This document shows positions 49,416 to 62,375 of a stretch of DNA of 64,000 nucleotides, in pieces. The notes beneath the pieces were generated by a model. That model worked only from the letters and a program-made list of their open reading frames with translations. It ran no database searches and was not told the origin of the DNA. Within the stretch, counting starts at the first letter, position 1. Every line of letters begins with the position of its first letter. Made by a program: the position numbers and the translations under genes. Origin of the DNA: Candidatus Hydrogenedentota bacterium (GTDB lineage Bacteria > Hydrogenedentota > Hydrogenedentia > Hydrogenedentales > CAILVY01); the NCBI GenBank assembly GCA_903837785.1, contig CAILVY010000207.1, forward strand, positions 802-64,801. The letters are read 5' to 3'.

Positions 49416-49532
49416 TGGACATTCCCATCCGCCTTGTCGCGCGGATCGTGGACGTGCTTCAATGTGCTTCCCGGCCTCGGGCGGCCTGGGATTCAGAAAT
49501 GTCCGGTGACGACAACGGGAGGGCAGACAAAC

Positions 49533-51800
49533 ATGGCGCGTAGCGTGCAGGCGGGAATCATTCAGTCGGACGGCGCTTCAGCGCACGGCACCGCCCTGTT
49601 CCCAGCCTTGGCCTGTTTGCTCCGGAAAACGTCTGGGGCGCTGGCCTTGTTGCTCGGGCTGGCCGCGCACGGCTGGACGGAAGCGGACGCCACGTATACA
49701 GTCGATCCCGTGACGCGCTATATCCATGTCACGTATTCCGTGCCGAAGGAAGCGCCGGACGCGGTGGCCATCCAATGCGAGTGGTCGCCCGCGGACAAGA
49801 ACGAATGGCATCCCGCCCGGGTGATGCCCTTGCTCTCGGAAACGGCGATGAACCTGCTCCCGAAAGAGATGTGGGACCAGGGCCGCAAAGGCCGCATCGT
49901 GGAGCGGCGCGCCGCAGGACTGACGCGTACCGCGGTCTTCAATCCATATCCCGACGCGGAGACGGGCGGCGCCGTCGAGGTGGATTTCCGCATCGCGATT
50001 GAGGCGCCGGACGGCGCCGTGCTGACCACGCGGCAAATCCGGCTCCACGCGGACCGGAAGGACATCGCATACATCGAGGACTGGTCGAACGTGCTTCAGC
50101 AGGACGCGCTCGGCACGCTGAAATACGATCGCGCCTGGACGTATCGCACGGGCCTCGGGGAATCGGAAGAGGTTACGTTCGGCAATGACCTCTATGGCAC
50201 CTCGCCGGGTGATCTTGCCTTGCCGCCGCTGTCCTATCCCCTGGACTTGCATGGGACCTACGCCATCTTCGTGTGCACCTCAGCGGCCAAAGGCGGGATG
50301 CGCCTGCGCCTGAGCGGCGACGAGCGGACGAACATGCTGGCCTCGCGTTTTCCCGGCCAGGAGATCCTCTGGCGCTGGGCGGCGATGGATCGGCAGCATC
50401 TCGTGCTCAAGCAGCCGCACGGCTACAAGGGCTGCTCTCCCGCGCATATCGACTACGTGAAGTTCGTGCCGCTCTCGCCCGAGACCGCGAAACAACTTGA
50501 CGACGCCTTCGGCGTGCCGGACCGCTTCATCGCGGGGTATTGGGAGCCCTATTCCTGGGCGTTCTACGACGACGTTCAGAACAGCCTGCAGCACCGCGAG
50601 CAGATCACGGCCTTCCGCGAGGCGCGGTTCAGCCTGCTCGATACGCAGATCGGGCGCTTCGGAATGAAAGTCGTCTACGAGTCCCGGAAGACCGATCCGC
50701 TTTATTATCGGACGATAGGCGACCCGGAACCGGGCGACAACAGTCCGCTCACGGATAACGTGGGCAAGATGCAGCAGTTCACGAACACGCTCGATGCCAC
50801 GATTCGCTACGCGCGTGAACTCGGCCTGCAGCCGCACGCCAATTTCGGCGCAAGCAACTGCTATCCCGGCAGCCCGCTCCAGGGCGACTTCTCGAAGGCG
50901 CATCCGGACTGGATGCGCGGATCGGCCCTGCGCTTCGAGGTGCCGGAGGTGCGCAACTATGCCCTGACACTGTACCGCGAGTCGCTCGAGATCGGGGCCC
51001 CGGGCATCTCGATCGATTTCTGCCGCTATCCCGAAACCGTCGATAGCGTCGAGACGGGCAATACGTTCATGCAGGCCATGAGCGCGCTCGCGGGGGAATT
51101 CGCGCAACAGCGCGGCCAGGCCGTGCCCGTGCTCGTGCGCTTTCCGGGCACCGGCGTGCGCCGCGCGGAATTCTTCGATTACAGCACGTGGGCGCGCGAG
51201 GGCTGGGTGGACTATCTTTGCCCCAGCAACATCCAGGGTTGGCCGCTGTACATCGACATCGCGCCGTACCTCGCCGCAGTCCAAGGCACGGCCTGCAAGC
51301 TGCTGCCCGAGATCGACGCCCTCGGGTGGGGGCTGCCCCTGCCGGGCCCATTCCTGTGGTGGGCCAATCGCCTCTATGACCTCGGCGTGCCCGGCCTTTA
51401 TATCTATCAGGCGGACGGGCGCGTGCTGGGGACGCCGGGCGATCGCCGCTGCATGCGGCTCCTTGCGAGCCGCGAGGGCGTGCGCCGCTGGTGGGAGGAG
51501 GATGCGCGGCTGCGCTCCGCCAGGAGCAAGGGCATCTATCTCTCCCGGCCCGAGCATCCCGACGGCGCCTATCACAGTTACGAGCGCGTCCGCGTCTGGC
51601 TGGAAGGCCTCCCGATGGCCGAAGTCGAGATGTTCGTGGATGGCAAACTCATCACCCAGGCTCCGGGGCCGCCCTATACCCTTGGCACGGAGGAGGCCTC
51701 GGCCGACAAGCTGCTTTCCGCGGGGGAACACGTCCTGCACATCCGCGCCCGCGACGGCGACGGGTGGCTTGAACAGGACTTTGCCATCCGGGGGGGCTGA
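49533..51800 (+). CDS. Large secreted hypothetical protein (possible glycoside-hydrolase-like TIM barrel plus C-terminal beta-sandwich)
   Basis: A hydrophobic signal-like segment follows MARSV. No motif I can assign with confidence. The start is uncertain; an in-frame ATG also lies at 49434. Confidence 0.45.
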   Translation: MARSVQAGIIQSDGASAHGTALFPALACLLRKTSGALALLLGLAAHGWTEADATYTVDPVTRYIHVTYSVPKEAPDAVAIQCEWSPADKNEWHPARVMPLLSETAMNLLPKEMWDQGRKGRIVERRAAGLTRTAVFNPYPDAETGGAVEVDFRIAIEAPDGAVLTTRQIRLHADRKDIAYIEDWSNVLQQDALGTLKYDRAWTYRTGLGESEEVTFGNDLYGTSPGDLALPPLSYPLDLHGTYAIFVCTSAAKGGMRLRLSGDERTNMLASRFPGQEILWRWAAMDRQHLVLKQPHGYKGCSPAHIDYVKFVPLSPETAKQLDDAFGVPDRFIAGYWEPYSWAFYDDVQNSLQHREQITAFREARFSLLDTQIGRFGMKVVYESRKTDPLYYRTIGDPEPGDNSPLTDNVGKMQQFTNTLDATIRYARELGLQPHANFGASNCYPGSPLQGDFSKAHPDWMRGSALRFEVPEVRNYALTLYRESLEIGAPGISIDFCRYPETVDSVETGNTFMQAMSALAGEFAQQRGQAVPVLVRFPGTGVRRAEFFDYSTWAREGWVDYLCPSNIQGWPLYIDIAPYLAAVQGTACKLLPEIDALGWGLPLPGPFLWWANRLYDLGVPGLYIYQADGRVLGTPGDRRCMRLLASREGVRRWWEEDARLRSARSKGIYLSRPEHPDGAYHSYERVRVWLEGLPMAEVEMFVDGKLITQAPGPPYTLGTEEASADKLLSAGEHVLHIRARDGDGWLEQDFAIRGG

Positions 51801-54673: not shown

Positions 54674-55936
54674 ATGGCAAGATGGCGGACATGGTTACCG
54701 GGCGGGCCGGGCAAGGGGCGCGCGCAACGCGCGGCGGGAAACACGTCTTCACCGGCGGGCGTGTTTCGGACGGCGTCGCGGGCGGAGGACATGACGGGGT
54801 TCGGCACGATGCTGGACGCGTTCGTGCCACTTCCGAACGCGACGCCGTTTGGCATGTTGCAGGTGTACCGGTTTCTGCGGGATGCGATTCCGGACATTTC
54901 AGACGCGGTGTGGACGTGGAAGCGGCTGTGCCAGACGGGCTTTGACGTCGAGGTGACGGAAGCGAGTTCGGAGGCCGCGTCGCGGCGTGCGGAGCGGCTG
55001 CTGACGGGCCTGAACGAGCGGGTGAACAGCGGCGACCGCGGGATGGACGGACTCCTCGACATCTTCTACACGTCTTTGTTCACGTATGGCGCCGCGGCGC
55101 TCGAGATCGTGCTCACTCAGAGCCGGGAATCGATTTGGGACGTGGTGCCGGTGGACGTGTGGACGGTGCGTTTCAAGCGGGAGTCGGGGCGGCTCCAAGC
55201 CTATCAGGTGCATGACGGGGAAACGATTCCATTGCCGATGGACCGGTTCATCTACGTGGGAATGGACCGGGACGGGACGAACCCCTATGGGCGGTCGATG
55301 CTGCGAAGCATTCCGTTCGTAGTGAAGATCCAGCAGCGGCTGATCGAGGACATGGCAAAGGCGACGCACAATGCCGGGTGGTCCAAGCTGCACGTGCAAT
55401 ACGTACCCGATGCGCGGGCGCGGGGAGAGTCGCAGGAACACTATCAGGCGCGGTTGGCCGGGAACTTCGAGTCGCTTCGCTCGAAGCTGACCGGACTGGA
55501 GACGGACCAGAACCTGGTGACGTACGACAACGTGAAGGTTTCGTTGTTGCGCGGGGACCAGCAGTCGCAGGTGTTTTACGGGAACCACAAGGCGATCGAG
55601 GAACAGGTGATCACGGGGATGCACCTGATGCCGATTCTCCTGGGCCGGAATTACGGGACGACGGAGACGTATGGCACGGCGCAATTCGAGATCGTGAACC
55701 GGCAGGTGGAGGCGGTAAACCGGAGTGTCCAGCGTATTCTGGAGCGCCTCTACAACTTCGAACTGGCGCTGATGTGGGGCGAAGCGAAGGCGCAGGTTCA
55801 CTTTCGCCACAACCGGACGGTGGACGTGTTGAAGGAGGCCCAGGCGCGATCAAAGGAAATCGAGAGCGCACTGCTCCTAAAGGACCGCGGCCTCATCGAC
55901 GCCAAGGAAGCCGCGAAGCGGCTGGGAGCGGTGTGA
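54674..55936 (+). CDS. Phage portal-like protein (call made from position and size; start uncertain, alternative ATG at 54791)
   Basis: A ~380-420-aa protein with a charged helical C-terminus lies immediately upstream of the scaffold/decoration/capsid genes. This is a synteny- and size-based call, not a motif-based one. Confidence 0.45.
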   Translation: MARWRTWLPGGPGKGRAQRAAGNTSSPAGVFRTASRAEDMTGFGTMLDAFVPLPNATPFGMLQVYRFLRDAIPDISDAVWTWKRLCQTGFDVEVTEASSEAASRRAERLLTGLNERVNSGDRGMDGLLDIFYTSLFTYGAAALEIVLTQSRESIWDVVPVDVWTVRFKRESGRLQAYQVHDGETIPLPMDRFIYVGMDRDGTNPYGRSMLRSIPFVVKIQQRLIEDMAKATHNAGWSKLHVQYVPDARARGESQEHYQARLAGNFESLRSKLTGLETDQNLVTYDNVKVSLLRGDQQSQVFYGNHKAIEEQVITGMHLMPILLGRNYGTTETYGTAQFEIVNRQVEAVNRSVQRILERLYNFELALMWGEAKAQVHFRHNRTVDVLKEAQARSKEIESALLLKDRGLIDAKEAAKRLGAV

Positions 55937-56286
55937 TGTTGCCTGCGGCGGCGATTACGGGAACCGGCAGCGTGCTACAGGAAATGCACGATGAGCCAGA
56001 ATGCGATCTCGCCCAGCGTGAGCACACTGAAGATCGTCAGCAGCTTCTTGTCCAGAGGCGAGCCACCCTCGAGCGCACGGGACCACAGCCAGCCAAAGGG
56101 GCGCGGCGCGTTGCAGCAGGGGGAGGATCTCTCCGAGTCGGGGACCGGCTGCATGCAGTCCGGGCGCAAGGGAGTTTCAAGCTCCCGGGTGACTTTCTCA
56201 ATGCCGTCGTTTCCCAGCATGTGTCGCGCCTTTGCCGTGCCGGCTCTGCCGTGCCTGAACGTGTCAACGACTCGATCTACACCTGA
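55936..56286 (+). CDS. Possible small ORF (116 aa) translationally coupled to the portal-like gene (gtgATGa overlap)
   Basis: ATG overlaps the portal-like stop. It fills the otherwise 390-nt gap. Composition is low-complexity and Arg/Ala-rich, so it may be spurious. Confidence 0.25.
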   Translation: MLPAAAITGTGSVLQEMHDEPECDLAQREHTEDRQQLLVQRRATLERTGPQPAKGARRVAAGGGSLRVGDRLHAVRAQGSFKLPGDFLNAVVSQHVSRLCRAGSAVPERVNDSIYT

Positions 56287-56326
56287 AACCGCGTGCGCAT
56301 TCGCACGCCAAGAAGAGGAGCGGAGT

Positions 56327-57367
56327 ATGAGCATGGAGCTTGAACCCTTTGTCTTCCGGCACGAGGGAACCGTAATCGGAATGCGGACGAATCCGGAGGC
56401 GGGGCCGGCGTCGGACGAGGAGGTGTTGCTGGCGGCGGTGAACCGTTTTGCGCTGCGGCCGCTGCGCCGGGATGAGTTCGCGGTGTTTTCGCTCGATTTG
56501 TGCCACAACCAGATCGACAAGCACTTCAGCCGATTCCCTGATGAGGAGCTGGAGAAGATTGACCGGATGACGCCGGGACGGCCGCTGATGGAACGGCATG
56601 ACCTGCGCGGTTCGCTGCCGCGCGGAACCTTCTTCCGCTCGCAGTTGCACCGGGACGAGGCACGGTTGGCGGTGCGGCCCGACGTCTATGTGCTGCGGAC
56701 GGCGGAGAACACGGATTTCATATTGAACATCGAGGGCGGCGTGTACCGGGAGACGTCGATCGGCTTTTCCTTCCGGCTGCCGGAATGCTCGATCTGCGGG
56801 AAGGACATCCGGACCTGCGATCACGTCCCCGGGCGGTCGTACGGGCAGCAACTCTGCTACTTCACGATGCGGGATGTGCTCGACGTCATCGAAGGCTCGG
56901 TGGTGCCTTCGGGATCGCAGGGCACGGGGTTTGTCACGCAGGAGCGCGCGCTGGCGTTGCCGGCGGCGCTCGAAGCGGCGCGCAAGGCGTATCACATGCC
57001 GATCGAAGTGCACGGCGGGGTGGAAGACGCACCGGAAGCGCGCGCGCTGCTCGAGGCGATGGAGGCGCACCGCCTGGCGCCGGGCCAGGTGGCGCAGGCG
57101 GTGGACGACGGCCTGGAAGCGCGGCGGCGGGCGGTGGAACGGTTTTGCGGGCTGGGACGGGAACTGGATGGGCTCGCGTTCGATGAGACGGTTTGGCGGC
57201 GGACACTTGAGCCGCTCACCCTTCGGGAAATTCACCGGCACTTGTCGGCGTATGAGATCCGCTTCGATCAGAAGTACCCGCCCCAGCCCGTATCGCGTCC
57301 GGAACCCCTTCCGGACAGCGGGCCAAAGGGGGTTTCGGAGAGAGCGATGGCGATTCTGCGGGCGTAG
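56327..57367 (+). CDS. Putative prohead scaffold/protease-like protein (lambda gpC/Nu3 position) with a Cys4-type zinc-ribbon-like cluster
   Basis: AAGAGGAG RBS. The C-terminus is helical and Ala/Glu/Arg-rich, so scaffold-like. A CSICGKDIRTCDH cluster is present. Assignment is by position only. Confidence 0.35.
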   Translation: MSMELEPFVFRHEGTVIGMRTNPEAGPASDEEVLLAAVNRFALRPLRRDEFAVFSLDLCHNQIDKHFSRFPDEELEKIDRMTPGRPLMERHDLRGSLPRGTFFRSQLHRDEARLAVRPDVYVLRTAENTDFILNIEGGVYRETSIGFSFRLPECSICGKDIRTCDHVPGRSYGQQLCYFTMRDVLDVIEGSVVPSGSQGTGFVTQERALALPAALEAARKAYHMPIEVHGGVEDAPEARALLEAMEAHRLAPGQVAQAVDDGLEARRRAVERFCGLGRELDGLAFDETVWRRTLEPLTLREIHRHLSAYEIRFDQKYPPQPVSRPEPLPDSGPKGVSERAMAILRA

Positions 57368-57431
57368 CGGCCGGCCACAAGGCCGGCACTCCGCGGAACC
57401 AGGCAGCAACAGCAACAAGAGGAGACACACG

Positions 57432-57812
57432 ATGGCATTCGGAGACGTGGGCGGAGCCGTGACGGAGTTGATCGTCACGTGCATGACGCCGGAACAGGGA
57501 TCGGTGAACATTCGCAAGGGCGACGCCCTCAAGCTCACCGGCGGGTACGAAATCAGCAATGTGACCGACGCGGAGGACGCGGTGTTCGGCCAGGCGATGG
57601 CGGACAGCGCGCTGAACGGCGCGGCCATTCCGGTGAAGGTGCGGGGGATCTGCATCTTCGCCTACACGGGCGATGCGCCCGTGGTGGACGGCGTGAAGGG
57701 CATCCTCGCGTCGGCAACCGACGGGAAGGTGAAGGCGCCCGCGGCGGGGAACGGCGCGGGCATCAATCTGATGGTGGACACGACGGCGGGCACGGTGAAC
57801 GTGCTGCTGTAA
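57432..57812 (+). CDS. DUF2190-like head decoration protein (lambda gpD position)
   Basis: A 126-aa Gly/Ala/Val-rich beta protein sits immediately upstream of the capsid gene. AGAGGAGAC RBS. Confidence 0.5.
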   Translation: MAFGDVGGAVTELIVTCMTPEQGSVNIRKGDALKLTGGYEISNVTDAEDAVFGQAMADSALNGAAIPVKVRGICIFAYTGDAPVVDGVKGILASATDGKVKAPAAGNGAGINLMVDTTAGTVNVLL

Positions 57813-57826
57813 GAAAGGAACGAACG

Positions 57827-58879
57827 ATGGTGTATGACAGCAGTCTGATGAAGGATCAGGCGCGCTTCCTGACGCAGCCGCAGGAGACGCTGCGCGCGAT
57901 GCGGGGGCGCGAACTGTACGAGACGCTCGGGTCGCTCGGGCTGAACCACACGCACTATTTCCGCGCGCTCGGCACGAACGTGCAGGATTACTGCGCGCAG
58001 GAGTTCGGGATCGACCTGGGTCGGATCACCGTGGAGCGCTTCTTCCAGTCGGACCCGGGCGCGAAATGGCTCTTTCCGGACGTGGTGCGGGAGGCGGTGG
58101 TCGCGGGAATGACCCGCAAGCCCGCGTATCCCAGGCTCATCATCCGGGACGAGCACATCTCGAGCGTGGCCTATGACGTGCCGTACGTGGAAGAGAACGA
58201 CGCGAACGAGGAACTGCGGCACGTGGCCGAGGGCGCGGCGATCCCGGAATCGGAGATCACGTATGGGGACCGCGTGGTGAAGCTGGAGAAACTGGGGCGG
58301 GGCGTCATCGCGTCCTACGAGGTGATCCGGCGGATGTCGGTGGACATGCTGCGCGTGCATCTGCAGCGCATCGGGGAGAATCTCGGCCGGAACCTGGACG
58401 CGCGGCTGGCCGCCGTGCTGGTGAACGGGGACAATTCCGGGGCCGGAACCGCCGCGGCGGTGCTGAACACGCACACGGCGAACACGTGGGCGTACCGCGA
58501 TCTCGTGGCGGGCTTCAACAAGCTCACGCTCGAGCATTACTTCACGCCGACGCACATGCTGGCGAACGCGGAGACGCTCGAAGCGATCCTCGACCTCGAC
58601 GAGATCAAGGACAGCGCGCTCTTTGATTTCGCCAAGACGGGCAACCTGCCGACGCCCCTCGGCGTGAATCTGGTGCCGATGGCGGATCAGCCGGCAAACC
58701 AGATCACGATTCTGGATGCGCAGTACGCGGTGCAGAAGCTGACCGAACAGGATCTGCTGGTGGAAAGCGACAAGCTCATCAACCAGCAGTGGGATCGCAC
58801 CTACCTGACGGTCGTCACGGACTTCGCGATTATCTACGCGAAGGCCCGAATCGTTCTGAACAGCGCCTGGCAGGCGTAG
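57827..58879 (+). CDS. Phage major capsid protein (lambda gpE-like / HK97-fold)
   Basis: The 350-aa protein sits at the gpE position after a decoration-like gene. The segment ...AIPESEITYGDRVVKLEKLGRGVIASYEVIRRMSVDMLRVHLQRIGENLGRNLDARLAAVLVNG... resembles capsid protein E-like families. Confidence 0.55.
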   Translation: MVYDSSLMKDQARFLTQPQETLRAMRGRELYETLGSLGLNHTHYFRALGTNVQDYCAQEFGIDLGRITVERFFQSDPGAKWLFPDVVREAVVAGMTRKPAYPRLIIRDEHISSVAYDVPYVEENDANEELRHVAEGAAIPESEITYGDRVVKLEKLGRGVIASYEVIRRMSVDMLRVHLQRIGENLGRNLDARLAAVLVNGDNSGAGTAAAVLNTHTANTWAYRDLVAGFNKLTLEHYFTPTHMLANAETLEAILDLDEIKDSALFDFAKTGNLPTPLGVNLVPMADQPANQITILDAQYAVQKLTEQDLLVESDKLINQQWDRTYLTVVTDFAIIYAKARIVLNSAWQA

Positions 58880-58952
58880 ACAGAAAGCGGGCGGGGGCGC
58901 GGGAACGCGCTCCCGCCGCAGCGCGGGAAACGCAATTAGGGAGGAGACAACG

Positions 58953-59372
58953 ATGGCTGCATTTACGACGGAGGATGCGGTTCGACTCGCGTTTCAGGTG
59001 AATGACAGCGGCTGGACGCCGACGGCACTCGTCCTGTCGAGCATCGATGAGGCCCATGAGGCCATTTTGCGCCGGCTGGACCCTGCGGCAGACACGCAGT
59101 CGCCCGCCGCAGGGCTGGTGCGCGGGGAAACGTTGTTGGCGGGAGCATGCCTGTTGCGCTCGCTGGCCTCCAAGGACGCGGTCCTTCAGAAGGACATCGT
59201 GATCGGCGGACAGCGCATCGAAACGGGACAACGCTTTGCCGCATTGATGGCGCTGAGCGCGAAGGTCGAGGAAGATGCATGGCAGACGCTCGAGCCCTTT
59301 CTCCTGGGTCCCGCCGGGCGCTGTCCTGCGTCGGTCACCGGCACAGTGCCGGTGTTGGGCGAGGGAGGATGA
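58953..59372 (+). CDS. Small phage-associated hypothetical protein (head completion/connector position)
   Basis: A 139-aa protein downstream of the capsid gene. ATGA overlap with the next gene. Confidence 0.35.
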   Translation: MAAFTTEDAVRLAFQVNDSGWTPTALVLSSIDEAHEAILRRLDPAADTQSPAAGLVRGETLLAGACLLRSLASKDAVLQKDIVIGGQRIETGQRFAALMALSAKVEEDAWQTLEPFLLGPAGRCPASVTGTVPVLGEGG

Positions 59373-60064
59373 CGGCCGTGGGGATCATGCTGGGCACCTA
59401 TGCGTTTGATGACGCGCGCACGACGGTCACGGAGAAATACGAGGAGGTGGGCGGACGCGACGCGCGGGTAGTGCAGATCAAGGGACTCCTGGACGGCCTC
59501 GCGTCGGTCGCGGAGCTGGAAGCGGCCCTGGACCAGATCCTCGCCCTGGCTTCTGAACAGGCGGAATGGACGCCGTTGTCCCTGCGGGAAGGGCGTTGGC
59601 TGCAGGTCCGCCGTACGGCGTTCGTCCGCGAGGTAAACCGCGGAGCGCTGGTGGGGAGCTTCACGCTGACTTTCGAGGCGTGCGATCCCTGTGAGACCGG
59701 CGAAGACGAGCGGGAGATTCCGTGGGCCATTACGGCCTCCGGGCAGAGCGTGGCATTGCCTGCGGCAGGAACGGCCGAGGCGCCGCTCCGCATCACCTTG
59801 CAGGCCAACGGCAACCTGCTCGAACCGGTGTTCAGCGACGGCGTGCGGCAGCTTCTGTATTGGGGCACGGTCCAGACGGGTCAAGTCCTGGTGCTGGACG
59901 GGGCCGCCGGATGTGCCTTGCTGAATGGCCAGGACGTAACGCCGTATACGCAAGGTCTGTTTCCGCGCGTGCGGCCCGGCGGGTCGGTGCTTCGGTACAC
60001 CGGCAGCGTGGGCAGCACCCATGCCGCGAGCGCCACCGTGGCCTACCGGGACAGGTGGTGGTAA
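59369..60064 (+). CDS. Phage-associated hypothetical protein, possibly distal-tail (Dit)-like
   Basis: A 231-aa protein. A weak resemblance to siphovirus Dit/Rcc01695-type proteins is seen (ELEAALDQILALASEQAEWTPLSLREGRWLQVRRTAF). Confidence 0.3.
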   Translation: MTAVGIMLGTYAFDDARTTVTEKYEEVGGRDARVVQIKGLLDGLASVAELEAALDQILALASEQAEWTPLSLREGRWLQVRRTAFVREVNRGALVGSFTLTFEACDPCETGEDEREIPWAITASGQSVALPAAGTAEAPLRITLQANGNLLEPVFSDGVRQLLYWGTVQTGQVLVLDGAAGCALLNGQDVTPYTQGLFPRVRPGGSVLRYTGSVGSTHAASATVAYRDRWW

Positions 60065-60066
60065 GC

Positions 60067-61806
60067 ATGGAATACACCATCGAGATCTACGACACCTGCG
60101 GGCGGCGCATGCGTGCCTATGCGCAGGCGCCCTTGCTGGATGTGGTGCGCGGGGGGCCGGACGCGCCGGATGTGGTGCGGGGCCTCCTGCCCAAGGAGAT
60201 CGCACAACTGGGCCACGCGTTTCGCGTGCGGGTGCTCGTAAACGGCGTGGCGCTGTGCGATGCCCGCGTTGACTTGACGAGCCCCTGGTGGAGCGACTCG
60301 GTCAAGCTTATTCTGGACAAGTACGTGCCGTTTCATGAGGTCGTCGAATTCGAGGCACACTGCTGCAAGGACGAACTGAACGGCTGGGTGTCCCAGGCGT
60401 ACGCGAACAAGGAAGTCAGCGCCATCGTGAAGGATGTGATCAACCGGGCGCCCGGTCCGGTCCATTACGGGGTGGCGCATACGGGATACCCGGAAGGGGC
60501 CTGGCGGGAGCACCTGAAATTCCTGGCACGGAAGACCGGGGACAATGAACTGGAGGTGGGGGGCAACTCGCGCGGGCAGTGGGTTGGCGCAGATCGCATC
60601 GATGCGAGCGGGGCGTATGCCAAGGATGGCGACACGATCGCGGGCATCAAGGTGGATGGGCAGCCGTGGCCGGATATCCGTTTGATGATGATTGACTCGG
60701 AAGAGTTGGAGCGAAACAGCCATGCCATCGCGCGGCATCCGGAGGTGGCCGGCTGGACCGACGCGCAATATGCCGCGAGCGGATACCGGCGGCTGGCGGA
60801 GGCCGCACGGGATCGGCTTCTTTACGAGATGGTCGTGCGCGGGATCGACTACATCGAACTCAACCCGCACAAGAATGCAGCCGGTGAATACGATGATCGC
60901 GTGGACCAATACGGCCGCTATCTTGCCCTCGTCTTCGGAGGTTCCGTGTGCTTCAACGCGGCCATGGTCGAACGCGGGCTGGCGGACGTGTACTTGTGGG
61001 AAGAGGGGCGCTACCACGCGCCGGAACTGGCGCTGAAGGAGTTCTACTCCTACGCCGGCGCAACAAAGGAGTCTATCGTGCCCACCGGGACGGCCCTGGG
61101 GAGCTTCGACGTGCGCAGCGGCGCGCTGGAAGTGATCACCGCCCTGGCCTACGCGGCCGGCGGCTACATCTTCTCCGTGGATGCGGACAGGACGGTGCAT
61201 TTTCGCCCTGCGGCCGCCGTGGATCGCGTCGTGTGCTTCGACCCGCTGCGGCACGGTGTGCAACTCGGCGCGCGCTCAGGCGCCCTCTGCAACGAAGTCT
61301 GGTTCCAGGGCAATCCGATGAGCTTCGTGGCAGGCGAACTATTCGCGCGGGAGGACAGCATCCGCGAATACGGCGTGCAGCGCCGGCAGCTTTCCTTCTT
61401 CTCGGTGTCGCGTTCGGACGACGCCGGGCGGATCCTGGACGGCCTGCTGGCGGACCTGGCGTATCCGGAGCCTTCGGGGTCCATCACGTTCTTCGGGGGA
61501 AAGCCCGAGCTACGCGTGGGCGAGATTGTGGAAGTGCGGGGCGCGCCGCTGCGCCGCCTGGAACCGGAGCTGGCCGGGGAATGGGACGGCCGCTTCACGG
61601 GAAAACTGGTGGGGCGCATCCGCTCGCTGCGGCACCGCTTCACCGGCGCACACCTGGAGACGGTGGCGTACCTGGGATCGCCCCTGCGATCGGTGGCAGA
61701 TCCGCTGGCCTTTCTGGTGCGGAGCCAGGAGCCCGCGGGCAATCTCTATGCGTTTCGGCTCGATGACGCGACTGTGGGACTGGATATGGGATTTCATCTG
61801 GACTAG
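60067..61806 (+). CDS. Phage-cluster protein carrying a complete staphylococcal-nuclease (SNase/thermonuclease)-like domain
   Basis: The central ~150 aa carry the SNase motifs DGDTIAGIKVDG...IRLMMIDSEELE...GRYLALVF...NAAMVERGLADVY. These follow the canonical order DGDT ... RL.GIDxPE ... YGR ... N..LV..GLA.VY. Unrelated N- and C-terminal domains flank the nuclease domain. Confidence 0.6.
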   Translation: MEYTIEIYDTCGRRMRAYAQAPLLDVVRGGPDAPDVVRGLLPKEIAQLGHAFRVRVLVNGVALCDARVDLTSPWWSDSVKLILDKYVPFHEVVEFEAHCCKDELNGWVSQAYANKEVSAIVKDVINRAPGPVHYGVAHTGYPEGAWREHLKFLARKTGDNELEVGGNSRGQWVGADRIDASGAYAKDGDTIAGIKVDGQPWPDIRLMMIDSEELERNSHAIARHPEVAGWTDAQYAASGYRRLAEAARDRLLYEMVVRGIDYIELNPHKNAAGEYDDRVDQYGRYLALVFGGSVCFNAAMVERGLADVYLWEEGRYHAPELALKEFYSYAGATKESIVPTGTALGSFDVRSGALEVITALAYAAGGYIFSVDADRTVHFRPAAAVDRVVCFDPLRHGVQLGARSGALCNEVWFQGNPMSFVAGELFAREDSIREYGVQRRQLSFFSVSRSDDAGRILDGLLADLAYPEPSGSITFFGGKPELRVGEIVEVRGAPLRRLEPELAGEWDGRFTGKLVGRIRSLRHRFTGAHLETVAYLGSPLRSVADPLAFLVRSQEPAGNLYAFRLDDATVGLDMGFHLD

Positions 61807-61853
61807 GCGCATGACGCGGCGTGCCGCAAGGGAACTACGAAGGAGACTGAGGC

Positions 61854-62375
61854 ATGGCAATCAAGGGACCGGGCTATCTGAAGACGACGTGGGCGTTTGA
61901 GGAACGCCCCGTGGCTTCGACGAAACTGAACACGTGGGACGACCGGATTGAAGCCGCGCTCGAAGCGGCCTTCTTCCTGCTCAATCTCGCCTGGGGCGGC
62001 GGGAACGGCGTCTTGCGCGGCGCGACCACGGACAACTTGCGGGTGGTCGCACTGCCGGCGCCCGGGCTGTCCGTGCAGGTGCAGCCGGGCTACGCGTTCA
62101 TCAGCAAGTTTCCCTACAAGCTGGCGCAAACGACGGACACGGTGGCAGTGACGCCGCCGGCCGCCCTTCCCCGCCTCGATCTCGTCCAGGCCTGTCTTGA
62201 CACCTGGAGCGTGAGCGTCAAGCCGGGCGCGGAAGCGGAGAGTCCGAATCCTCCGGGCGCCGACAATCACTGCATCCCGCTGGCGCACCTTTACCTGCGG
62301 CCCGGGATGACCAGCGTCAAGAATACGAATGATGATGTCAATGGCTACATCATCGATGCGCGGATCTACGTGTAA
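61854..62375 (+). CDS. Phage-associated hypothetical protein (173 aa)
   Basis: Last co-directional gene of the module. No recognisable motif. Confidence 0.35.
   Translation: MAIKGPGYLKTTWAFEERPVASTKLNTWDDRIEAALEAAFFLLNLAWGGGNGVLRGATTDNLRVVALPAPGLSVQVQPGYAFISKFPYKLAQTTDTVAVTPPAALPRLDLVQACLDTWSVSVKPGAEAESPNPPGADNHCIPLAHLYLRPGMTSVKNTNDDVNGYIIDARIYV

What the first reader, a model, noticed from the sequence alone, without database searches (positions are those of the whole stretch)
60067..61806. Staphylococcal-nuclease-like domain embedded in a 579-aa protein of the capsid module
The central region contains the complete ordered SNase motif set (DGDTI ... IRLMMIDSEELE ... YGRYLALVF ... NAAMVERGLADVY), including the Asp/Glu Ca-site-like positions. 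A nuclease fused to unrelated N- and C-terminal domains inside a head or tail-tip gene cluster is unusual. It could be a virion-associated nuclease, a packaging-associated DNA processor standing in for a missing terminase nuclease, or an ejected effector.
Basis: seen in the sequence. Interest (0 to 1): 0.7.

Follow-up and report, generated by a model that had tools for sequence, protein, structure and literature searches.

The report
Nuclease built into a phage-tail hub
The 579-aa protein is the tail-tip "hub" of a small phage-derived gene cluster inherited across the bacterial phylum Hydrogenedentota, and an apparently active staphylococcal-type nuclease domain has been inserted into the middle of the hub fold, a combination I could not find described anywhere.

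Summary

The surrounding block has nine genes: portal, protease/scaffold-like, a 126-aa virion protein, capsid, gp6-like adaptor, Dit-like, hub-SNase and p173. It has no terminase, tail tube or tape measure. It is syntenic and single-copy in about 70 Hydrogenedentota species genomes, under purifying selection (dN/dS 0.06-0.15), and co-diverges with neighbouring host genes. No relative was detected in IMG/VR.

The best reading is a domesticated, GTA-like, stub-tailed particle with three Ca-dependent nuclease domains at its tip, probably acting outside the cell. That role is inferred, and the insert's strongly acidic charge argues for caution. The packaging-nuclease idea is unlikely.

The parts
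60067..61806 (+). 579-aa tail-tip hub (Tal/gp27/gp44/XkdQ-class) carrying an inserted SNase domain
60067..60591 (+). N-terminal hub domain (residues 1-175)
60592..61071 (+). Inserted SNase (thermonuclease) domain, residues ~176-335, catalytic set intact
   Evidence: Catalytic columns across 58 orthologues. Most conserved part of the protein (67% mean pairwise identity, dN/dS 0.05-0.13). Net charge -10.
61072..61806 (+). C-terminal hub domains (residues 336-579)
   Evidence: hhalign 99.2% probability: residues 352-579 align to 146-368 of insert-free ~365-aa hubs. Distant relatives give weak hits to Pfam YQBQ-like and Prophage_tail.
59369..60064 (+). Dit-like distal tail protein (231 aa)
   Evidence: Pfam SPP1_Dit 26.8 bits (cut-off 25). 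PHROG minor tail protein 6e-13 and Dit 3e-10. Syntenic in 60+ loci.
58953..59372 (+). Head-to-tail adaptor (139 aa, gp6 / Mu gpJ-like)
57827..58879 (+). Major capsid protein (350 aa)
   Evidence: Pfam Phage_capsid_4 8e-16; phrog_3922 major head protein 3.6e-50.
57432..57812 (+). 126-aa virion structural protein (head-associated)
   Evidence: phrog_4588 virion structural protein 1.1e-7, full length. My earlier scans of 57455-57809 were out of frame and are void.
56333..57367 (+). Protease-like plus scaffold-like ORF, fused in this window and separate in other genomes
   Evidence: phrog_16951 6e-35, function unknown. Orthologues mapped. The functional label rests only on position; the PDB profile search was negative.
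54674..55936 (+). Portal protein (Mu-like)
   Evidence: Pfam Portal_Mu 5e-9; phrog_3753 portal 2.4e-45.
61854..62375 (+). p173, a conserved 173-aa protein after the hub, function unknown
   Evidence: Syntenic in about 60 loci with 60% mean identity. Weak PHROG hits to N-terminal parts of large virion/baseplate proteins. No PDB sequence match.

Best explanation
The protein is the trimeric tail-tip hub of a reduced, chromosomally inherited phage-derived particle of Candidatus Hydrogenedentota. The particle's genes give capsid, portal, gp6-like adaptor, Dit-like ring, hub and p173, with no tube, tape measure or terminase in the cluster. A thermonuclease domain, related to standalone acidic nucleases that look exported, was inserted between the first hub domain and the rest of the hub fold, and it has kept its full catalytic and Ca2+-binding set. 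So each particle would carry three nuclease domains at its distal tip. SNase chemistry needs roughly millimolar Ca2+, so the enzyme should be silent in the producer's cytoplasm and become active once the particle is outside. There it most likely cuts nucleic acid met at or around the target cell surface, such as extracellular DNA of biofilm or floc matrix or of lysate. That would play the clearing or penetrating role that peptidoglycan hydrolase or depolymerase domains play in other Tal and hub proteins. Shown: the fold, the insertion, residue conservation, purifying selection, synteny and co-divergence with the host. Inferred: trimer geometry, enzymatic activity, Ca2+ gating, the substrate, and that particles are made at all.
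For: Hub fold with a separate SNase match. Insertion point: where residues 352-579 align to 146-368 of insert-free hubs. One such insert-free relative sits after the tape measure and Dit in a genuine siphophage. Position directly after Dit with near-abutting genes. Catalytic residues: R205, E213 and R284 in 58/58, D210 in 57/58, D189 in 56/58, mapped. The insert is the most conserved region (67% against 48-50%) with dN/dS 0.05-0.13. Standalone relatives P0196 and P0202 share the insert's extra helical segment and have hydrophobic N-termini. Element: nine-gene synteny in about 60 loci, single copy. No terminase, tube or tape measure within 10 kb on either side. Hub identity tracks the identity of adjacent host genes (Pearson 0.85-0.94), and GC3 matches the flanks (r 0.86). 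No relative detected in IMG/VR. An endolysin-like gene and a small gene with a hydrophobic N-terminus follow the block in many genomes. GTAs typically keep a core head-tail cluster with accessory genes elsewhere (PMC11841831).
Against: No activity data exist. The insert is strongly acidic (net -10 here, family median -13, against +8 for S. aureus nuclease), which fits poorly with a non-specific DNA-binding surface. Only local basic residues are conserved (R177, K186, R205, R278, R284, K324). A non-specific nuclease beside the DNA exit channel could damage the particle's own cargo. The orientation of the domain in the trimer was not modelled. A distant lineage (P0148, locus L003) keeps the domain but has lost D189, R205, D210 and E213, so the domain may also have a structural role. 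No terminase was found, so it is unproven that the capsid is ever filled or that particles are made. A few copies look disrupted (L058, L060, L066, L080).
Confidence: 0.55

Rival explanations
1. Delivered toxin. The hub nuclease is the payload of a killing particle, analogous to evolved VgrG spikes or tailocin/eCIS effectors. It would enter a competitor cell and degrade its nucleic acids.
Against: No sheath, tube or tape measure that could drive penetration. The cluster keeps a portal, capsid and adaptor under strong selection, which a pure toxin injector would not need. SNase-type enzymes need Ca2+ well above cytoplasmic levels (established SNase biochemistry). No adjacent immunity-like gene recurs.
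Confidence: 0.13
2. Cargo-entry processor. The particle is a GTA that releases DNA into the recipient's periplasm, and the tip nuclease trims or nicks that DNA, or recipient-surface DNA, to feed a competence-type uptake system.
For: The GTA-like features of the element. Absence of a tape measure or ejection proteins that could build a trans-envelope channel. RcGTA is reported to rely on recipient uptake functions (background knowledge; the general GTA frame is in PMC11841831).
Against: Entirely inferential. A non-specific nuclease would as easily destroy the cargo. Packaging of host DNA is untested and no terminase was found.
Confidence: 0.1
3. Not a nucleic-acid nuclease. The SNase fold here serves as a binding module, or as a phosphodiesterase for another phosphodiester-containing surface polymer, acting as a receptor-binding or depolymerase domain.
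For: Strong net negative charge of the insert and of its standalone relatives. The distant homologue P0148 keeps the domain with a degenerate active site. Tail-tip enzymes that attack surface polymers are common (background knowledge).
Against: The full nuclease catalytic set, including both arginines, the general-base glutamate and the Ca2+ ligands, is essentially invariant over sequences down to 39% identity. That is hard to explain by binding alone. No SNase-family enzyme with a non-nucleotide substrate is known to me.
Confidence: 0.12
4. Packaging nuclease. It substitutes for the nuclease of a missing terminase and cuts DNA during or after head filling.
For: No terminase in the window or in any of about 45 loci with long flanks.
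Against: The protein is a tail-tip hub placed after the adaptor and Dit, and tail components join after packaging (established assembly order; PMC11841831). It has no ATPase. SNase needs Ca2+ and is non-specific. GTAs commonly keep accessory genes at other loci, so a terminase may simply lie elsewhere.
Confidence: 0.03
5. Inert remnant. The cluster is a decaying defective prophage, and the nuclease domain is a leftover with no current function.
For: No terminase, integrase, replication or full tail genes are present. A few copies carry stops or frameshifts.
Against: Same nine genes in the same order across a phylum. 57 of 58 full-length hub genes are intact, with length fixed at 578-583 aa. 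dN/dS is 0.06-0.15 with synonymous sites saturated in most pairs. The block co-diverges with host genes and has ameliorated GC3.
Confidence: 0.05

Closest known systems
Tail-associated lysins and hub-enzyme fusions of siphophages, myophages and tailocins (for example phage 80alpha gp59 Tal, diffocin hub-hydrolase CD1368, phi812 hub with a C51 peptidase domain)
   Different: The enzyme here is an SNase-type nuclease, not a cell-wall hydrolase. It is inserted between hub domains instead of being appended at the C-terminus. No tape measure or tube gene accompanies it.
HFTV1 baseplate hub gp44 (PDB 9h4p) and other insert-free hubs (Mu gp44 1wru, XkdQ-like 9g8s, pyocin R2 hub 6u5h)
   Different: The HFTV1 paper has no occurrence of 'nuclease' and likens its hub to xylanases and glycosaminidases (PMC12494034). 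Those hubs cap a tube filled with tape measure protein.
Staphylococcus aureus nuclease / thermonuclease family (PF00565)
   Different: About 30 extra residues between E43 and R87. Net charge is -10 against +8. It is embedded in a structural protein instead of being a free secreted enzyme.
Gene transfer agents (RcGTA and relatives)
   Different: No terminase, tube or tape measure in the cluster. No experimental evidence of particles or DNA transfer. A different phylum and a different ancestral phage. The review stresses that sequence alone cannot establish GTA status (PMC11841831).
Evolved VgrG spikes of type VI secretion (gp27-like hub plus effector domain)
   Different: No gp5-like needle, no sheath or tube, and here it comes with a capsid and portal.

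Membership tests
SNase / thermonuclease (PF00565) | Profile match above the curated threshold | tested here: met
   24.6 bits against a gathering score of 21, E 3.7e-5, but only residues 267-320 are covered. 27 of the 120 listed homologues carry a precomputed PF00565 hit.
SNase / thermonuclease (PF00565) | SNase OB-fold in three dimensions | tested here: met
SNase / thermonuclease (PF00565) | Catalytic R35, E43, R87 and Ca2+ ligands D21, D40 present | tested here: met
   R205, E213, R284, D189 and D210 in the window protein. Conserved in 56-58 of 58 orthologues.
SNase / thermonuclease (PF00565) | Ca2+-dependent hydrolysis of DNA and RNA | not testable with these tools
   Needs a recombinant enzyme assay. 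The acidic net charge makes this worth testing and not assuming.
NCBIfam EcnA / NucI equivalogs | Score above the equivalog cut-off | tested here: not met
   25.7 bits against a cut-off of 180, and 16.6 against 250. It is a distant family member, not an orthologue of those enzymes.
Tail hub / Tal (gp27, Mu gp44, XkdQ/YqbQ, Prophage_tail class) | Hub fold | tested here: met
Tail hub / Tal (gp27, Mu gp44, XkdQ/YqbQ, Prophage_tail class) | Sequence-profile membership (PF06605 or PF24032) | tested here: inconclusive
   The query itself has no direct Pfam hit. It links by hhalign at 99.2% to insert-free hubs. Other distant relatives from the same profile search give sub-threshold YQBQ hits, and one gives a Prophage_tail hit above its cut-off.
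Tail hub / Tal (gp27, Mu gp44, XkdQ/YqbQ, Prophage_tail class) | Gene immediately downstream of Dit | tested here: met
   Dit-like gene 59369-60064 and hub ATG at 60067. Same order in all loci and in the siphophage locus L079.
Tail hub / Tal (gp27, Mu gp44, XkdQ/YqbQ, Prophage_tail class) | Trimer that closes the distal end of a tail tube and holds the tape measure C-terminus | not testable with these tools
   No multimer modelling was available. No tube or tape measure gene is in the cluster, so the canonical partners are missing.
Gene transfer agent | Phage-derived structural cluster fixed in the host chromosome, vertically inherited and under purifying selection | tested here: met
   The correlations are not corrected for phylogenetic non-independence, and no species tree was available.
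Gene transfer agent | No replication or integration functions; genes not preferentially self-transferred | tested here: inconclusive
   No recurrent family other than the block and two small downstream genes was found within 10 kb on either side in about 45 loci with flanks. Self-transfer was not testable.
Gene transfer agent | Terminase-driven headful packaging of random host DNA into particles | not testable with these tools
   No terminase in the window or flanks. The rest of these genomes could not be searched.
Gene transfer agent | Release by lysis and transfer to recipients | not tested
   Only a hint: an endolysin-like family (phrog_894 1.8e-6; sub-threshold M15) and a small protein with a hydrophobic N-terminus follow the block in 25 and 40 loci. 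Both are absent from this window.
Contractile injection system / tailocin / T6SS spike | Sheath, inner tube and baseplate wedge genes | tested here: not met
   None were found among recurrent flank families. Capsid and portal are present instead.

The most novel reading that the evidence does not exclude
Hydrogenedentota carry a previously undescribed, phylum-wide domesticated phage-derived particle system: a capsid with a stub tail built only from adaptor, Dit and hub. Its tip would be armed with three active Ca2+-dependent nucleases. This would be the first nuclease-bearing tail hub and possibly a new, independently evolved GTA-like lineage in which the nuclease has a role in reaching or entering target cells.
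Probability: 0.35. Interest if true: 0.85.

Novelty: new variant of a known kind. Interest (0 to 1): 0.68.

Why it matters
Tail hubs and Tal proteins are known to carry cell-wall hydrolases, and T6SS spikes are known to carry toxins. In the searchable literature I found no report of a nuclease inserted into a phage tail hub. The domain is the best-conserved part of a protein kept intact across a whole, largely uncultured phylum, so it is probably doing something important.

The host element is also of interest. It is a nine-gene head-plus-tail-tip cluster with no terminase, tube or tape measure nearby, and it co-diverges with its hosts. If it makes particles, it would add an independent lineage to the very short list of domesticated phage-derived devices such as GTAs. 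It would also give a tractable test (a Ca2+-dependent nuclease assay with point mutants) for a new step in how such particles reach or enter cells. Hydrogenedentota are common in sludge, anammox granules and sediments, where extracellular DNA is a matrix component, so a particle-borne DNase could matter ecologically.

Tried and rejected
1. 'Nuclease fused to unrelated domains': rejected. The flanks form one hub fold.
2. Terminase elsewhere in the window: 19 further ORFs, covering the terminase-sized ones, are housekeeping or other host-type genes or have no match.
3. Terminase, tube or tape measure in the flanks of 73 related loci: none. Recurrent flank families are host polysaccharide genes, a WD40/PD40 protein, or unknowns.
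4. Active phage relatives in IMG/VR: none for the hub. The capsid and portal queries found only one 7.9-kb fragment of the same kind of element, plus four marginal portal hits at 21-27% identity.
5. p173 as a homologue of the ~152-aa post-hub proteins of siphophage L079: rejected.
6. Sequence-profile searches of PDB for the adaptor, p173, f160 and the protease-like gene: no useful hits.
7. My by-eye call of f160 as an M15 peptidase: not supported directly. Later it gained indirect and partial support through the L077 member.
8. SNase-insert-only homologue search: returned only fragments of the same family, with 144 candidates scored, so it was uninformative. P0136 turned out to be a piece of a split hub gene, not a standalone enzyme.
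9. The afdb50 fold library was unavailable.
10. Promoter/terminator scan, Rfam and repeat scans of the block: nothing above chance.
11. Literature searches for an SNase or nuclease in a tail hub or Tal, and for phage-like elements in Hydrogenedentota: nothing relevant.
12. My scans of window 57455-57809 were out of frame and are void. They were redone as 57432-57809.
Full report
**1. The observation**

The reading frame 59722..61806 on the + strand holds an ATG at 60067 that gives 579 codons plus a stop. Homologues all begin at this methionine. The ATG lies 2 nt after the TAA stop of the upstream gene and follows a GGTGGTGG stretch.

Several independent lines identify an SNase domain:
- Pfam SNase (PF00565) scores 24.6 bits against a gathering score of 21 (E 3.7e-5), though it aligns only residues 267-320.
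- NCBIfam EcnA aligns residues 187-310 at E 9.4e-6, far below its equivalog cut-off.
- phmmer against PDB aligns both halves of the domain to S. aureus nuclease.
- An explicit pairwise alignment maps D21, R35, D40, T41, E43, R87, Y85, Y113 and Y115 onto D189, R205, D210, S211, E213, R284, Y282, Y309 and W311. About 30 extra residues sit between E43 and R87.

**2. What the whole protein is**

An AlphaFold2 model built from 32 family members is confident (mean pLDDT 83, pTM 0.78).

Hubs of about 310 aa align over 260-270 residues, and the query's C-terminal flank is only about 240 residues long. So the N-terminal flank must be part of the same fold.

Foldseek against predicted viral structures returns only hub/Tal proteins. 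Their alignments span the whole query, but TMq is at most 0.47, so no top-50 viral protein appears to reproduce hub plus SNase.

An exhaustive profile search of 1.84 billion representatives finds only about ten full-length representatives. Otherwise it finds proteins that share only residues ~333-500. Some of those carry weak YQBQ-like hits, and one carries a Prophage_tail hit above its cut-off.

Profile-profile alignment to a set of insert-free ~365-aa relatives matches query residues 352-579 to their residues 146-368 at 99.2% probability, including a shared C-terminal FRLD..LD..HLD ending. The query therefore has about 200 extra residues, including the SNase domain, between the first hub domain and the rest.

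One insert-free relative (P0185) lies in a genuine siphophage. Its gene order is capsid, connectors, tube, chaperones, an 859-aa tape measure, SPP1-type Dit, then hub.

The protein is a tail hub with an inserted nuclease. It is not a nuclease fused to unrelated domains.

**3. The neighbourhood**

The window is a bacterial chromosome segment. It carries cytochrome bd, MnmG, HemE, an ABC ATPase, sulfatases, DUF1549/1553, and proteins with N-terminal methylation motifs, one of which also has DUF1559.

The phage-like genes are limited to 54674-62375:
- Mu-like portal
- a protease-like plus scaffold-like ORF
- a 126-aa virion structural protein
- major capsid protein
- a 139-aa protein
- Dit-like protein
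- the hub
- a 173-aa protein, p173

The genes abut one another. The only sizeable spacing is an unexplained ~400-bp gap upstream of the capsid, between the portal and the protease-like gene. There is no room for hidden genes between capsid and hub. No terminase, stopper, tube, chaperone or tape measure gene is present here or elsewhere in the window.

**4. Distribution and evolution**

The hub has more than 300 homologues at the 90% clustering level. Almost all are 578-583 aa and 53-71% identical. Those that carry names are almost all from Candidatus Hydrogenedentes.

In GTDB species representatives it occurs in 73 loci from about 70 genomes. Essentially all are Hydrogenedentota, at one copy per genome. 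A few carry other labels, which may be placeholder MAG names or binning errors; I did not check.

The nine-gene order holds in every locus with enough sequence. The exceptions are L025 and L027, which lack portal and protease upstream. The host genes on either side differ between distant genomes.

Clustering all flank ORFs from these loci reveals no recurrent terminase, tube or tape measure. It does reveal lineage-specific host polysaccharide genes and two small families after p173.

Of 58 full-length hub genes, 57 have no in-frame stop. L058 has one stop, at codon 361. L080 is split into four ORFs. L060 and L066 align only in part.

Pairwise dN/dS is 0.06-0.15 in all three parts of the gene. 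The SNase insert is the most conserved part: 67% mean pairwise identity against 48-50% for the flanks.

The catalytic columns are R205, E213 and R284 in 58/58, D210 in 57/58 and D189 in 56/58. The T41-equivalent position varies (S, C, A, T). That is tolerable because, from established SNase structures, that ligand is a backbone carbonyl.

In ten loci that share the same downstream host genes, hub identity tracks host-gene identity (Pearson 0.85-0.94). GC3 of the block tracks GC3 of the flanks over a range of 0.61-0.89 (r 0.86, mean difference 0.018). The pairs are not independent, so the p-values are inflated, but the pattern is what vertical inheritance predicts.

No hub relative was detected in 2.9 million IMG/VR contigs. 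That scan seeds on short peptide patterns, so it would find only fairly close relatives. Capsid and portal queries recover one 7.9-kb fragment of a related element.

**5. Variants**

- A low-GC lineage (L003, GC 44%) has the order capsid, p173-like, adaptor, fn3-extended Dit, hub. Its hub is 30% identical to the window's. It keeps the SNase domain but has lost D189, R205, D210 and E213.
- L077 (GC 57%) has the head genes followed directly by the endolysin-like and small downstream genes. No adaptor, Dit or hub lies within the remaining 2 kb.
- In 25 main-family loci p173 is followed by a ~160-aa family. One member of that family matches an endolysin PHROG (1.8e-6) and, below threshold, Peptidase_M15_3.
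- In 40 loci there is a ~128-aa family with a moderately hydrophobic N-terminal segment.
- Both of these families are absent from this window.

**6. Origin of the insert**

The standalone 180-183-aa nucleases P0196 and P0202 have hydrophobic N-termini. They share the insert's unusual extra helical segment (EET.LN.HA..HPE..QY..Y). So the insert appears to belong to a subfamily that includes nucleases that look exported. That reading of the N-termini is mine, made from the sequences.

**7. Mechanism**

Shown:
- A tail-tip hub carries an SNase domain with its catalytic set held constant under strong purifying selection.
- It sits within a vertically inherited head-plus-tail-tip cluster.

Inferred from established knowledge:
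- Hubs are trimers at the distal end of the tail, so a particle would display three nuclease domains.
- SNase-type enzymes need roughly millimolar Ca2+. The enzyme should therefore be inactive in the cytoplasm where particles assemble and active outside the cell.

My best reading is an extracellular, particle-borne nuclease. It would clear nucleic acid (matrix eDNA or lysate DNA) at or near the target surface, filling the slot that wall hydrolases or depolymerases fill in other Tal proteins.

Caveats:
- The insert is strongly acidic (net -10 here, family median -13, against +8 for S. aureus nuclease), as are its standalone relatives. That is unexpected for a non-specific DNA binder.
- The orientation of the domain in the trimer is unknown.
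- The L003 lineage shows the domain can persist without catalysis.
- Nothing here shows that particles are made.

Rivals are a delivered toxin, a processor of cargo DNA at entry, a non-nuclease binding or phosphodiesterase module, a packaging nuclease, and an inert remnant.

The packaging idea is the weakest. The protein is a distal tail component, and tails join after head filling (PMC11841831).

**8. Comparison with what is known**

- It works like a Tal or hub-enzyme fusion. By fold and gene position it is a hub.
- By fold, residues and Pfam threshold it is an SNase-family domain, but not an orthologue of EcnA or NucI.
- The element resembles a GTA in being a domesticated, vertically inherited head-tail cluster. 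The defining behaviours (terminase-driven packaging of host DNA, lysis, transfer) are untested, and no terminase was found.
- The 2024 GTA review notes that accessory genes are usually scattered around the genome. It also says sequence features cannot prove GTA status.
- The HFTV1 paper has no occurrence of the word 'nuclease' and likens its hub to xylanases and glycosaminidases (PMC12494034).
- Full-text searches found no report of an SNase or other nuclease domain in a tail hub or Tal, nor of this element in Hydrogenedentota. The library lacks many subscription papers, so this is absence of evidence only.

**9. Verdict**

In novelty terms it is a new variant of known kinds, namely the enzyme-bearing tail hub and the domesticated phage-derived cluster.

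Interest is fairly high, for two reasons. The nuclease-in-hub architecture appears to be undescribed. The host element is a phylum-wide, reduced, terminase-less particle cluster whose biology is open.

Noticed in passing
window 55937-56332: A ~400-bp stretch with no conserved coding potential lies between the portal and the protease-like gene. Other loci have only ~40-100 bp there. Rfam and repeat scans found nothing apart from a trivial 14-nt tandem repeat.
   Followed up: partly
L012:5156-6373, L014:4236-5885 (and about 9 other loci): An extra ORF of about 400-550 aa sits between the protease-like and scaffold-like segments in a subset of genomes. It has no Pfam or PHROG match and is absent from this window, where the two segments form one ORF.
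   Followed up: partly
25 loci, e.g. L048:8678-9181 and L077:5787-6272; 40 loci, e.g. L060:12325-12690: Two small families follow p173 in most genomes. One is ~160 aa with an S.H....GG.A.D ... HVHADNR pattern; its L077 member hits endolysin phrog_894 at 1.8e-6 and Peptidase_M15_3 below threshold. The other is ~128 aa with a borderline hydrophobic N-terminal segment. Together they may form a lysis pair. Both are missing from this window.
   Followed up: partly
L003 (Logan SRR13394437, GC 44%): A divergent lineage has a different gene order (capsid, p173-like, adaptor, Dit with an fn3 extension, hub, 308-aa ORF). Its hub SNase domain has lost four catalytic or Ca-site residues.
   Followed up: partly
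L077 (IMGVR_UViG_3300036961_000458, GC 57%): This is the only IMG/VR relative. The head genes are followed directly by the endolysin-like and 128-aa genes, with no adaptor, Dit or hub in the remaining 2 kb. A TPR protein lies upstream of the portal.
   Followed up: partly
L025, L027: Portal and protease-like genes are not found within ~7 kb upstream of the rest of the block, so the cluster is split or partly lost in these two genomes.
   Followed up: no
L058:6573-8312, L080:5541-7293, L060, L066: Possibly disrupted hub genes: an in-frame stop at codon 361 (L058), a gene split into four ORFs on a long-read contig (L080), and partial alignments (L060, L066). Sequencing error and real decay were not distinguished.
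   Followed up: partly
window 56333-57010: The protease-like gene is very conserved (65% mean column identity). It has an invariant PEC..C..D.R.C.H pattern (C152, C155, C162, H164) that looks like a zinc-binding knuckle. There is no Pfam, NCBIfam or PDB match; the only hit is phrog_16951, of unknown function.
   Followed up: partly
window 49434-51800: A 788-aa ORF with coding-like GC3 has no Pfam, NCBIfam or PHROG match. It lies among genes for proteins with N-terminal methylation motifs and an oxidoreductase.
   Followed up: no
loci L007-L009, L011, L012, L035, L044, L076 and others: Some genomes carrying the block are labelled Nitrospirales/Nitrospiraceae (binchicken MAGs), Bathyarchaeia, Rhodothermaeota, Vicinamibacterales or Planctomycetota in their record titles. 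Their hub proteins nest within the 52-62% identity range of the Hydrogenedentota copies, so placeholder names or mis-binned contigs seem likely.
   Followed up: no
window 60067-61806 and family: The whole hub is acidic (N -3, insert -10, C -4 in the window; family medians -5, -13 and -9.5). The standalone relatives P0196 and P0202 are acidic too, while P0172 is +16.
   Followed up: partly
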